DNA of 62,998 nucleotides, the filler included, from Candidatus Woesearchaeota archaeon (GTDB lineage: Archaea > Nanobdellota > Nanobdellia > Woesearchaeales > JAFGUC01), in assembly GCA_016938695.1 (NCBI GenBank). It is 19 parts of 19 records of this genome, joined end to end, with 100 filler letters (N's around TTAATTAATTAA, not from the genome) between each part and the next. Parts side by side here need not be neighbours in the genome. Positions count along the whole stretch, not along the records: positions 47,327 to 54,632 come from JAFGUC010000053.1; 18 more parts are not named here. One strand, 5' to 3'. The stretch's first letter is position 1, and every line of letters starts with the position of its first letter. Positions 48,001 through 51,000 of this stretch are shown piece after piece. A program made the position numbers.

Positions 48001-51000
48001 AACAGTTCACGATCAAATTAACAATTCTCATTGGGACGTAATCTATCAGAATCCAAATGGAGAATTTGCATACTTATACACTTTAGACAAGGTCGATAAA
48101 TCAGTTAAAGCAAAATATCACCTTGTTGATGAATTTGATTCTGTATTGCCTAAACTAACTAAAAATTTATTATTAGGACTAAAGAAAGAAGAAAGTCTTG
48201 CATTGACATTATTTACTTTACTAAAAACTTACATGCGTGCAGGAAATGATGTTTATTTCCAAGAAAATGGACATAGAGGTTTGACAACATTACAGAAAGA
48301 AAATATCTCTATTTCATCAGACACTGTTGTTTTTGATTTTATTGGAAAAGATGGAGTTCCTCAGACGATTTCTGTTAGTTTTCCAGAAGTATATTTACGA
48401 AATTTGACTAAACGGTTGAAAAAGGTTCGTGATAAGTTTGTTTTTTCAGATGACTCTTTTAAGAGTTTACATGAGACAGAATTTCTTCGTGCATTTAAGA
48501 AATATTGTGGTAAAGAGTTTTATCCACATATTGTTAGATCTCATTATGCCACTAAAAAAGTGGAGGATTTTTTATTGTCTCATAAACATCCTACTAAAAA
48601 GGATGTTATTTCTTTGTATGATGAAATCGCTTTAGCTTTAGGGCACAAGAAGTTTTCTAAGAAAAAACAAACGTGGGAGCCAAGTCACTCTGTTACTGTT
48701 GCACATTATATTTCTCCTAAATTGGTTAAGAAAGTTAAGAAGATTGTTGGTTGAAATGAGCACTAAGAAAAATAAACCAGTTGATGAAAAAAAACACAAT
48801 CCTTTTTTCTTTTGGTATTGGGTTTTTATTTCTTTAGGAATTATTGTATTCGTAATCGCAGTATTTCTTAAAGATCAATTCTTGTTTTTTAGTACAAATT
48901 TAAAATCTTCTTTAATAATATCAACTGCTACACTTGGACTAATTACAATATGTTATGGTCTTGCAATTCTTTTTGCGAAAAGAAAAAAACTGTGGTTTAA
49001 TGCTACAATAATACTTATGGCGTGGGTTTTAGTTATTGGTTTAACTATTGTTCTGAATTTTCTTAATTTCACAGGAATTCATCTTATTCTCAGAGATTAC
49101 GATGATATTACTAAAGTTATAGGAAGAATTGATTGTGTTCCTGATGATGGATATCTTAAATACAATACAAAAACTCAATGCTCTGTTGAACCTAGTTTGT
49201 CTGATATTAAAGGAGCTGTAATTTATTACTTACCAGATAACCTTACTAGAATTGAAAATTTTTCAGATTTAAGTTTTACTGCGCCTTCAGGAACTAAACG
49301 AATTAAATTTGCATTAAAAGGAATTAATAATGGTAAGAATTTATCCTTAGTTGTTGCAAATGATGTAAATTTCGTTGAAGCAACACAAGTTGAAAAGAAA
49401 ACAGCAACTGCTCTTACTGTTGTAATGTGGTTAATTGCGGGAGTATTTGTCTCAATTCCATCTTTAATGAATAATATTAAGAACTTGTTTGATCAGAATT
49501 AAATAAGCTTCCACGGAGACTTAACTAAGAAATTTATTTTGAAATAAAGCCCAAAATAAGCATTAATAAAAATAACATTAATAAAATCCAAGATAAAATG
49601 GGATTCATTTTTTTAAAATAAGGATATGTTCGAATATTCCCTCGACTTTTTATCTTATTTTTAAAAAGTTTAATATCTGACTTTTTTATTATTGGAAATA
49701 AACCTTGATTAGTCGCACCATAATTACAAGTTTTACAGTAATCTCTAATTGAACCTGTTTTGTAACCATTAATTGAATCTATGTCGGTACTACCACAATT
49801 TGAACAGATCTTAATTTCATCATCCATGTTATTAACTTATAATATGATTCAAATTTAAATATATTTATCTTTCAATTATTACCAACATTAGAAAATATTA
49901 ATAAATCAGTGTTAGTATAAATCAAGTATGGGTTTTAAACAAATCTATAATATCTTGAAATATCAGTATCTTGAGCTCCGTGTACTTGGCTTAATAATGG
50001 GTTTAACAATATTTATTATTAAAAAATATACAGAAAATATTTCATACAGTAAATCCTTAATCCTCAGTTTAATTATTGTCACAATAATCTTCTTGTTATT
50101 TACAGAATATAAAATTCATTTAATTAAAAATCTCAAAAAAACAGGAATTAAAATTTCATCAATAGTTAGTTATTCTAGGGGGTGGGGGATTTATCAATAC
50201 TTCAAATATACATACATTGTAAACTATAAAAAATACACTAAAGAAATTTTTATTCGTAAAAATAATTCTCTTGCTAAAAAATTCCTAAAAACTGAAAAAA
50301 TAAAGGTCTTATACAATCCAAATAATCCGAGAGAATCGATTCCTGAATTTCTTTCAAAAGAGATTTAAACTTTTAATAAAAAGCTTCCACAGGGATTTGA
50401 ACCCTGGACCTGCTGCTTACTAGGCAGCTGCTCTACCACTGAGCCATGGAAGCACTAATAATAGAAAAGACTAAGGAATTATTTATAAATATTTCTTTTT
50501 CTTAGTTAAAATAAGCCTTTACAACGTATTGGTTCAACATTCTACATGTGTTGAAAAATGATGCGTTTATTGCTATTGAATTTCGCATAATTTCAACCCA
50601 TTCTTCTTTGTGATGATAATACAAAGGTATTATTTTCTCTTCTAAAACGTTGTATAAAGAATTTGAATCAGAAACGTCATCTGTTGAAGGATCATTATTA
50701 CCGATTGCCCAACCAGTTACACCTTCAATACAACCTTCAATCCACCAGCCGTCTAAAATACTCAAACTTGGAACACCATTGTGGGCTGCTTTCATTCCAC
50801 TAGTTCCAGATGCTTCTTTTGGACGTTGTGGAGTGTTTAACCATAAGTCAACTCCAGGTATTATGATTTTTGCCAAATCAATATTATAATTCTCTAAATA
50901 AACTAATTTAATGTTTTCACCTAGTCCAAGACGCATCGAGAATATTTTTTTGATAATGTCTTTACCATTGAAATCTCGTTTGTGAGCTTTTCCTGCAAAA

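What a model noticed while it worked through the whole genome (the two positions that open the first line are those of the whole stretch)
50382..50453. tRNA-Thr with A34 (AGU) replaces G34 tRNA-Thr in an archaeon
The genome has a canonical tRNA-Thr gene with anticodon AGU and no Thr-GGU gene; Thr is otherwise read by UGU and CGU. The same A34 tRNA recurs in many DPANN genomes, so a lineage-level A34 tRNA exists in archaea, with no TadA-like deaminase recognised, as in mycoplasmas. The Ala and Pro boxes also seem to be read by one U34 tRNA each.
Evidence so far: ARAGORN and Rfam (72.6 bits) call Thr(agt). A search for missed tRNAs found Pro-UGG and Leu-CAA but no Thr-GGU, Ala-GGC or Pro-GGG. 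C17 belongs to this genome: end overlaps C70-C75-C17 and tetranucleotide distance at the median of main-contig windows; its tRNA-Asp, identical to that on C70, assembles at depth 33 between flanks of 14 and 13, and the tRNA-Thr stretch is covered with 0 differences. A pattern scan of GTDB genomes gave 20 matches, all called Thr(agt), 16 with archaeal labels (Woesearchaeota, Nanoarchaeia, Aenigmatarchaeota and others) and 4 bacterial. The single-contig relative G025 has AGU and no GGU among its 38 tRNA hits. The four deaminase-family genes match guanine, dCMP and [...]
(Added by a program. Inside this text positions count along the whole contig: they may not be those of the stretch shown here. 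"Call 12" and the like, gene names such as g00115 and contig names such as C1 are that model's own, and its searches are not shown. The text may have been shortened before it was handed on; [...] marks where a part breaks off. The agent that wrote the report below was given it as the finding of a first reader that could run no searches.)

Follow-up and report, generated by a model that had tools for sequence, protein, structure and literature searches.

The report
Archaeal lineage-wide A34 threonine tRNA
This tiny DPANN archaeon, like about one in ten of its relatives, carries an intact threonine tRNA gene whose anticodon starts with A, which reviews say archaea lack; it has no G-starting counterpart here, so the A-starting tRNA likely reads ACU and ACC codons, probably without conversion to inosine.

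Summary
Confirmed. Window 50382-50453 (-) is an intact tRNA-Thr(AGU). The genome's other Thr genes are UGU and CGU; five searches found no GGU.
The gene is a lineage trait: 40 of 401 same-order genomes in 18 families, and 7 of 8 in one family of another order.
'Replaces G34' holds only in part. Of 25 carriers in an unbiased sample, 15 lack GGU and 10 keep it, usually in tandem. Eight genomes encode all four Thr anticodons, against the published A/G exclusion rule.
It does not look like a G34A mutant of GGU: its anticodon arm matches CGU (37 of 48 nearest) or UGU, never GGU.
AGU-only genomes use less ACC than expected (21 of 21 below the fit; log-odds -0.43 by family, p=0.016), which points to real use in translation.
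No TadA co-occurs. The single-contig carrier showed only a dCMP-type deaminase.
Best reading (0.7): unmodified A34 reading ACU and, less well, ACC, as in Mycoplasma. Inosine is untested (0.15).
I found no paper reporting this; this scan noted it before on other DNA.

The parts
50382..50453 (-). tRNA-Thr(AGU) gene, 72 nt, no intron, no encoded CCA; G1-C72, C2-G71, U3-A70, discriminator U73
50412..50428 (-). Anticodon arm: stem with G27-C43, G30-C40, C31-G39; loop C32 U33 A34 G35 U36 A37 A38. This stem is the commonest one of both the AGU class (19 of 48) and the CGU class (12 of 44)
50419..50421 (-). Anticodon AGU (A34 at 50421)
50480..50499 (-). Purine-rich stretch followed by a TATA-like box ending 27 nt upstream of the tRNA; likely archaeal promoter (consensus recalled, not tested)
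   Evidence: read; inference
50372..50381 (-). T-rich run directly after U73; likely terminator
   Evidence: read; inference
52838..52914 (-). tRNA-Asp(GUC) on the same contig, identical over 77 bp to the copy on C70; context only

Best explanation
The gene is an intact tRNA-Thr with anticodon AGU that is conserved across many Nanoarchaeia; it is likely charged with threonine and likely used with A34 unmodified, predicted to read ACU by Watson-Crick pairing and ACC by a weaker wobble, which would let the GGU gene be lost, as it is in this genome. Shown: the gene, its conservation with paired stem changes, its spread, absence of GGU here, the CGU/UGU-type arm, lower ACC use in AGU-only genomes, no TadA. 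Inferred: it arose as an extra Thr isoacceptor, often beside GGU, in AT-rich genomes where ACU is frequent; C32-A38 and t6A37 would stabilise mismatched third positions; GGU was then lost in several lineages and ACC use fell by about 30-40%. UGU and CGU read ACA and ACG.
For: Spread: 40 of 401 same-order genomes in 18 families (47 pattern matches, 7 dropped as not tRNA-like); fixed or nearly so in f26 5/5, f7 3/3, f72 3/3, f78 8/10; 7 of 8 in family f131 of another order, whose one non-carrier has GGU. Selection on structure: 48 distinct AGU genes keep paired stems with base swaps on both sides, e.g. pair 28-42 as CG 27, TA 12, AT 5, GC 2, GT 2. Non-random GGU loss: in 40 carriers GGU was found in 8, CGU in 35, UGU in 34. 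In the unbiased sample GGU is in 10 of 25 carriers, against a purine-34 match in 141 of 176 non-carriers (p=6e-5). 3'-half searches found exactly three standard Thr genes in each of 5 AGU-only genomes. Codon footprint: ACC/ACU log-odds -0.50+-0.14 (p=6e-4; 21 AGU-only vs 20 GGU-only genomes), -0.43+-0.17 by family (p=0.016; one-sided permutation 0.009), -0.36 within the order (p=0.02); no significant shift in genomes with both genes or in six other boxes. No co-occurring TadA: the best candidate here scores 82.6 against a cut-off of 150 and is closest to guanine deaminase; G025 showed only a dCMP-type deaminase; 7 of 10 further same-order AGU-only genomes had no PF14437 match at E<=1e-12; amidohydrolases in 4 of 18 AGU-only genomes. 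Kae1 for t6A37 is present in 5 of 5. Precedent: unmodified A34 Thr tRNA reads ACC in Mycoplasma, UGU reads it poorly, and C32 relaxes third-position reading (PMC6103715).
Against: No RNA evidence of expression, charging or modification. A fall in ACC is also expected if G34 gave way to I34, so the codon test shows use, not chemistry. ACC is still 20-21% of Thr codons in G025 and G220, a heavy load for an A:C wobble; an orthogonal unmodified tRNA(AGU) in E. coli favoured ACU over ACC about 10:1 or more (PMC11066159). Stand-alone guanine/cytosine-deaminase-like genes were commoner in same-order AGU-only genomes (9 of 25) than in GGU-only ones (4 of 61 among those classified; p=0.001), though not in the second set alone (2 of 10 vs 4 of 41, p=0.58). 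The Pro box also shifted weakly (-0.33, p=0.05). This genome's own residual is small (-0.18). Codon counts rest on about 30-40 kb per relative and simple ORF calls; genomes are related; the family-level p does not survive correction for 8 boxes. Origin is mixed: outside the arm the gene is no closer to CGU than to GGU or UGU, and the tree is poorly resolved.
Confidence: 0.7

Rival explanations
1. A34 is converted to inosine (or otherwise modified) by an enzyme not recognised as TadA/ADAT, so the tRNA reads ACU, ACC and ACA. This would be the first wobble inosine in archaea.
For: ACC stays at 20-21% of Thr codons in two AGU-only genomes. The anticodon arm is more conserved than in the other three classes (mean distance 4.1 vs 5.1-6.2 of 14 positions), as an enzyme-recognition site would be. 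Stand-alone deaminase-fold genes are enriched in AGU-only genomes overall.
Against: Those deaminases fall into at least four subfamilies; the three tested are closest to guanine or cytosine deaminases. They also occur in GGU-only genomes and were not found in single-contig G025 or three-contig G199. The only one over the TadA cut-off lies among bacterial-looking genes in G006, likely contamination. The ACC shift is the same with or without them (-0.40 vs -0.51, p=0.77). Ten of 25 carriers keep GGU, which I34 would make redundant.
Confidence: 0.15
2. AGU is only an auxiliary ACU reader. ACC is read by the U34 tRNA (four-way wobble), as must happen in this genome's Ala and Pro boxes, so GGU loss does not depend on A34.
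For: Ala and Pro have only U34 tRNAs here and in G025. Ala-GGC was seen in about 22 and Pro-GGG in about 34 of 131 order genomes. Genomes with both AGU and GGU are the most AT-rich (mean GC3 0.19), which fits an add-on role for ACU.
Against: GGU is lost far more often where AGU is present. In f131 the two are complementary, 7 to 1. Mycoplasma tRNA-Thr(UGU) reads ACC poorly (PMC6103715). Elp3 is present in 5 of 5 genomes, so U34 is probably modified; the effect on wobble is unknown.
Confidence: 0.1
3. Artefact: a sequencing error, a misbinned contig, or a GGU gene merely missing from an incomplete bin.
For: The gene lies on a 7.3 kb contig of an 85-contig bin with 5.4% contamination; a bacterial-type tRNA-Glu sits on C57. 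Two pattern hits elsewhere were false: an intron-bearing CGU (L210) and a eukaryote-like gene (L168).
Against: 48 distinct homologous genes; composition, overlap and synteny tie C17 to the chromosome; single-contig G025 has the same set of three standard Thr genes.
Confidence: 0.03
4. The RNA has a role outside translation (decoy, integration site, regulator).
For: A34 is unusual, and insertions separate the gene from Leu(UAA) in this genome.
Against: All canonical tRNA elements are kept, 9 of 48 copies carry 37/38 introns, no protein family recurs beside it in more than 4 loci, and codon use tracks the gene set.
Confidence: 0.02

Closest known systems
Mycoplasma capricolum tRNA-Thr(AGU) with unmodified A34 (Andachi 1987, Inagaki 1995; not read, known through PMC6103715 and PMC11066159)
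   Same: A34 anticodon in the Thr box of a small AT-rich genome; no GGU; single U34 tRNAs in Ala and Pro boxes; tRNA-Ile(UAU) as in some mycoplasmas (PMC8450103)
   Different: Archaeal body with U73 and often introns; CGU is kept; many carriers also keep GGU; the arm points to a CGU/UGU-type origin, not G34A; modification state unknown
Bacterial Thr-tRNA(AGT) and Leu-tRNA(AAG) of Lactobacillales and Leuconostocaceae (PMC8007984; bioRxiv 10.64898/2026.05.15.725136)
   Same: Genus- or family-level A34 tRNA in a four-codon box, standing in for G34
   Different: There ANN is reported only in place of GNN and read as a G34A substitution; here A34 and G34 coexist in 10 of 25 carriers, and the hosts lack TadA
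Eukaryotic tRNA-Thr(IGU) made by ADAT2/3, and bacterial tRNA-Arg(ICG) made by TadA
   Same: Gene-encoded A34; G34 isoacceptor absent in this genome
   Different: No TadA/ADAT found; only the Thr box has A34 in this genome; G34 exclusion is broken in relatives
Sporadic archaeal ANN genes (3 of 10,517 in GtRNAdb; Methanobrevibacter ruminantium tRNA-Arg(ACG), PMC8450103)
   Same: A34 anticodon in an archaeon
   Different: The Methanobrevibacter gene is described as a likely lateral transfer absent from close relatives; this one is inherited, in at least 18 families of one order and in other orders

Membership tests
Canonical archaeal tRNA-Thr | Full cloverleaf with conserved D- and T-loop bases | tested here: met
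Canonical archaeal tRNA-Thr | Thr identity set G1-C72, C2-G71, G35, U36, U73 (set recalled from own knowledge) | tested here: met
   All present here; G1-C72, C2-G71 and U73 in 48 of 48 homologues, partly by construction of the patterns
Canonical archaeal tRNA-Thr | Expressed and aminoacylated with Thr | not testable with these tools
   No RNA holder listed; nothing of this organism laid
Mycoplasma-type unmodified-A34 tRNA-Thr | Gene-encoded A34 in the Thr box with no G34 isoacceptor | tested here: met
   Met in this genome and G025; not met in 10 of 25 carriers
Mycoplasma-type unmodified-A34 tRNA-Thr | A34 left unmodified in the mature tRNA | not testable with these tools
   No RNA data; only indirect evidence from missing TadA
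Mycoplasma-type unmodified-A34 tRNA-Thr | Thr box read by AGU + UGU only | tested here: not met
   CGU present here and in 35 of 40 carriers
I34 systems (TadA, ADAT2/3) | A tRNA A34 deaminase in the genome | tested here: not met
   Best candidate 82.6 bits vs cut-off 150, closest to guanine deaminase; none shared by carriers. An unrelated fold is not excluded; ADAR/Tad1-type domains were not searched
I34 systems (TadA, ADAT2/3) | Mutual exclusion of A34 and G34 genes in one codon box | tested here: not met
   Both genes in 10 of 25 carriers; all four anticodons in G022, G060, G154, G234, G324, G387, G427, G295
I34 systems (TadA, ADAT2/3) | Inosine at position 34 in mature RNA | not testable with these tools
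   No RNA data

The most novel reading that the evidence does not exclude
These DPANN archaea modify A34 of tRNA-Thr with an enzyme unrelated to TadA/ADAT, giving the first wobble inosine (or a new A34 modification) in archaea, recognised through the conserved anticodon arm. The genomes with all four Thr anticodons would then be snapshots of a G34-to-I34 decoding switch like the one at the root of eukaryotes.
Probability: 0.15. Interest if true: 0.88.

Novelty: new variant of a known kind. Interest (0 to 1): 0.66.

Why it matters
Reviews state that all ANN anticodons are missing in archaea, that A34 and G34 isoacceptors exclude each other throughout life, and that every organism lacks at least one isoacceptor per box (PMC8007984). 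A 2026 preprint counts 3 ANN genes among 10,517 archaeal tRNAs and calls the absence of unmodified A34 a paradox. Here an A34 tRNA is inherited in about 10% of one DPANN order, breaks the purine-exclusion rule in eight genomes with all four anticodons, and is associated with a shift in codon use. The three states side by side (G only, A+G, A only) form a natural series for asking why unmodified A34 is rare and how a box switches from G34 to A34, the step that preceded inosine decoding in eukaryotes.

Tried and rejected
RNA evidence: no RNA holder listed; three same-study RNA runs laid as contigs gave only short pieces of other organisms, so no verdict. G34A point mutation of the GGU gene: not supported by the arm (nearest class CGU 37.4, UGU 10.6, GGU 0 of 48; C32 in 43 of 48 vs U32 in 39 of 39 GGU; G30 in 47 of 48 vs C30 in 34 of 39). 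Whole-tRNA tree: 72 columns, mostly unresolved; it cannot give the number of origins. Intron-less patterns undercount, because introns and variant T-loops are common. Searches used a pattern one base too long and found nothing; corrected. False hits dropped: G321; L210 and L168; the broken matches L153 and L212; 7 of 47 rows; 6 of 27 rows. Conserved protein neighbour of the gene: none in more than 4 loci. Co-occurring TadA or amidohydrolase: none. Within-genome expression proxy (two-codon C use): it did not separate expression from composition; uninformative. Calibration on Ala-GGC and Pro-GGG presence: too few genomes (3 and 5 of 27; p=0.68 and 0.08). A whole-genome read of G025 for codon use and enzyme content was not obtained; that question rests on 40 kb plus family searches. 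Look-up of earlier findings by sequence: nothing.
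Full report
OBSERVATION. Window 47327-54632 is contig C17 of a 1.5 Mb, 85-contig bin, 99% complete and 5.4% contaminated. At 50382-50453 (-) lies a 72-nt tRNA with loop C32 U33 A34 G35 U36 A37 A38. ARAGORN calls Thr(agt), Rfam gives 72.6 bits, and the minimum-energy fold is the cloverleaf. 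A TATA-like box ends 27 nt upstream and a T run follows (inference). The genome has two other Thr genes, CGU and UGU. Five searches that fail in different ways found no GGU. This matters because the genome's only Pro tRNA has a T-loop intron and is missed by both ARAGORN and Rfam. C17 matches the main contigs in composition (56th percentile of 163 windows) and joins C70 through C75, though one overlap lies in a tandem repeat. The join places the gene 8.2 kb after Leu(UAA) on the same strand, the neighbour seen directly upstream in 10 of 48 homologues. The organism is taken to be a Woesearchaeota-type member of Nanoarchaeia, inferred from the titles of records with the same gene type.

DISTRIBUTION. 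An intron-less pattern over 401 same-order genomes matched 129 and showed AGU in 12, counting this genome. A 5'-half pattern that tolerates anticodon introns matched 47, of which 40 are tRNA-like (7 dropped by eye), in 18 families: f26 5/5, f7 3/3, f72 3/3, f78 8/10, scattered elsewhere. One of the 40 is unpublished (G266); leaving it out changes the count by one. In 401 class-wide genomes the gene is in 7 of 8 members of family f131 (another order) and singly in f135, f144 and f149. One record with the f131 gene type (L171) is the type genome of 'Ca. Tiddalikarchaeum anstoanum' (PMC8561730 passages). A scan of all GTDB species for intron-less genes gave 119 loci (63 of 64 parts scanned). I took 40 forward: those with archaeal titles, except two broken matches (L153, L212), plus L134, which has a bacterial title but a gene of the archaeal type. 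Two of the 40 later proved false (L168, L210). One remaining locus is titled Aenigmatarchaeota. Several carry 'Methanosarcinales' titles but hold genes identical to those of same-order genomes, so titles are unreliable. The other 77 loci have bacterial titles and are whole Thr(AGU)-like genes, partial copies or chance matches; they were not followed. No intact gene was seen in archaea outside DPANN, but that scan misses intron-bearing genes.

REPLACEMENT OR ADDITION. In 40 carriers the same pattern found CGU in 35, UGU in 34 and GGU in 8. In the unbiased set of 201 genomes, 25 are carriers; 10 also have GGU and 15 do not. Among non-carriers 141 of 176 have a purine-34 match, a figure that includes some chance hits; 48 rows were not listed (p=6e-5). 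The f131 member without AGU has GGU. G025, one contig, shows AGU, CGU, UGU and no GGU among 39 Rfam hits. Where both exist they are usually tandem: 11 AGU genes have GGU 84-1075 bp away on the same strand. Eight genomes encode AGU, GGU, UGU and CGU (G022, G060, G154, G234, G324, G387, G427, G295). So AGU is a fourth isoacceptor that often, not always, goes with loss of GGU.

ORIGIN. From stored loci I extracted 48 AGU, 44 CGU, 42 UGU and 39 GGU distinct genes (part of the listing was cut, the summary lines were seen). AGU genes have G30-C40 (47), C31-G39 (44) and C32 (43). GGU genes have C30-G40 (34 of 39) and U32 (39 of 39). With position 34 ignored, the nearest non-AGU arm is CGU for 37.4, UGU for 10.6 and GGU for 0 of 48. 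For the rest of the molecule the nearest class is UGU 27.9, GGU 12.2, CGU 7.8. In G022 AGU and CGU differ only at positions 34 and 59. The tree keeps most GGU genes together and mixes AGU with CGU and UGU, but has few columns and cannot count origins. A single G34A change of today's GGU gene is unlikely. A copy from the CGU/UGU side, or a tandem copy of GGU with a converted or convergent arm, both fit. Different arm types in the main order, in f131 and in f144 suggest more than one origin (inference).

CODON TEST. I fetched 30-40 kb from each of 50 relatives chosen for long contigs (20 AGU-only, 10 both, 20 GGU-only) and added this genome. After adjusting for C/U bias in the other boxes, the ACC/ACU log-odds is -0.50+-0.14 in AGU-only genomes (p=6e-4) and -0.17+-0.17 in genomes with both. 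Val, Gly, Ser, Leu, Arg and Ala show no shift; Pro shows -0.33 (p=0.05). The Thr effect holds within the order (-0.36, p=0.02), at low GC3 (-0.46, p=0.005) and with families merged (11 vs 20; -0.43+-0.17, p=0.016). All 21 AGU-only genomes fall below the GGU-only fit, against 10 of 20 GGU-only ones. This supports true loss of GGU and a weaker ACC reader. It does not tell A34 from I34, kin are not independent, and the family-level p would not survive correction for eight boxes. Genomes with both genes are the most AT-rich (mean GC3 0.19 vs 0.27 and 0.35).

ENZYMES. This genome has four deaminase-fold genes: guanine-deaminase-like (147 bits to guanine deaminase, 76 to the best TadA; 82.6 vs TadA cut-off 150), dCMP-type, cytidine deaminase, and a two-domain cytidine-deaminase-like protein. 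Across 48 and then 62 genomes no TadA tracks AGU. G025 showed only a dCMP-type enzyme. The one hit over the TadA cut-off lies among bacterial-looking genes on a contig of G006. Against my reading, stand-alone guanine/cytosine-deaminase-like genes were seen in 9 of 25 same-order AGU-only genomes and 4 of 61 GGU-only ones (p=0.001; only the 30 best hits per search were classified). The second set alone gave 2 of 10 vs 4 of 41 (p=0.58), the proteins belong to at least four subfamilies, and the ACC shift does not depend on them. Five of 7 f131 carriers have a cytosine-deaminase-like gene that the GGU member lacks. I leave this unexplained. Elp3 and Kae1 are present in 5 of 5 genomes.

ALA AND PRO. 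Both boxes have one U34 tRNA here and in G025. In 131 order genomes I counted by eye about 22 with Ala-GGC and about 34 with Pro-GGG, and no convincing A34 gene in either box (no U34 positive control was included). U34-only reading therefore looks common in the order and separate from AGU, while most genomes keep a purine-34 Thr tRNA.

MECHANISM. Shown: gene, spread, paired stem changes, GGU absence here, arm signature, ACC shift, no TadA. Inferred: charging by ThrRS (position 34 is not an identity element; recalled), reading of ACU and more weakly ACC by unmodified A34, helped by C32-A38 and t6A37. The Agris review reports that Mycoplasma tRNA-Thr(AGU) reads ACC efficiently, that UGU reads it poorly, and that C32 relaxes third-position discrimination (PMC6103715; passages and section 5 part 1). 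Confidence 0.7; inosine by an unknown enzyme 0.15; auxiliary role with U34 wobble 0.1; artefact or non-translational role 0.05.

LITERATURE. PMC8007984 (passages): all ANN missing in archaea, A/G mutual exclusion, one isoacceptor lost per box in all organisms. PMC11066159 (passages): A34 genes absent in archaea; orthogonal tRNA(AGU) prefers ACU about 10:1 or more. bioRxiv 10.64898/2026.05.15.725136 (part 1 of 7 and passages; supplements closed, and they may name the three archaeal cases): 3 of 10,517 archaeal tRNAs are ANN; E. coli thrT-AGT is functional. PMC8450103 (passages): one archaeal Arg(ACG), likely transferred. PMC3711424 (passages): mycoplasmas live with unmodified A34 and no TadA. 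PMC9897764 (passages): nothing on A34. Eight searches listed no paper reporting a DPANN tRNA-Thr(AGU); subscription papers are mostly not covered, and Andachi 1987, Inagaki 1995 and Rafels-Ybern 2018/2019 were not read. Earlier notes of this scan describe the same tRNA in three other genomes, and A34 Leu and Ala tRNAs in other DPANN groups; they are unchecked leads, not support.

VERDICT. Real and inherited; a new variant of a known kind. The Mycoplasma solution appears again in archaea, with two twists: an arm of CGU/UGU type, and genomes that hold all four anticodons. Interest 0.66.

Noticed in passing
G000:C70:283120-283225 (outside the window): The genome's only tRNA-Pro(UGG) carries an AT-rich insert of about 30 nt in the T-loop, a non-canonical intron position; ARAGORN and Rfam both miss it.
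   Followed up: partly
G000:C20:45383-45496; L065 (G025): tRNA-Ile(UAU), with inserts in both D-loop and anticodon loop in G000, as known from Nanoarchaeum equitans; another parallel with mycoplasmas. TiaS was not searched.
   Followed up: no
L069 (G025:C1:196843-197029): A 92-nt tRNA with UGU anticodon, long variable arm and A73 lies next to a short-arm Ser(GCU) gene; an odd pair that may be allo-tRNA-like or from a mobile element.
   Followed up: no
G025: No tRNA-Ser(GGA) was seen among 39 hits. In 40 kb of G025 the C/U log-odds is highest in G34 boxes (Val 1.31, Gly 0.25), lowest in boxes without G34 (Ser -0.85, Ala -0.76, Pro -0.97), with Thr between (-0.27); Arg (G34) is an exception at -0.63.
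   Followed up: partly
window 47717-48754 (+): A 345-aa topoisomerase IB catalytic-core gene (PF01028, E 2e-15) on the same contig.
   Followed up: no
window 52838-52914 and G000:C70:367483-367559: Two identical tRNA-Asp(GUC) copies (77 bp), unusual for an archaeon; possibly the trace of an integration.
   Followed up: no
window 54362-54632: C17 ends in a tandem repeat of 54-bp period inside a low-complexity reading frame that continues on C75.
   Followed up: no
L068, L071, L077 and many same-order loci: Many Thr tRNAs have a paired change G18 to A and U55 to G in the D- and T-loops, and two have a further altered T-loop; standard patterns miss them.
   Followed up: partly
Stand-alone guanine- or cytosine-deaminase-like genes of several subfamilies look enriched in AGU-only genomes (9 of 25 vs 4 of 61), but the second set alone does not show it.
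   Followed up: partly
L168 (G421:C3) and L412 (G006:C46): Likely contamination in public bins: eukaryote-type Thr tRNAs on a 778-kb contig of a bin titled Nitrosopumilaceae, and a bacterial-type TadA in a same-order bin.
   Followed up: partly
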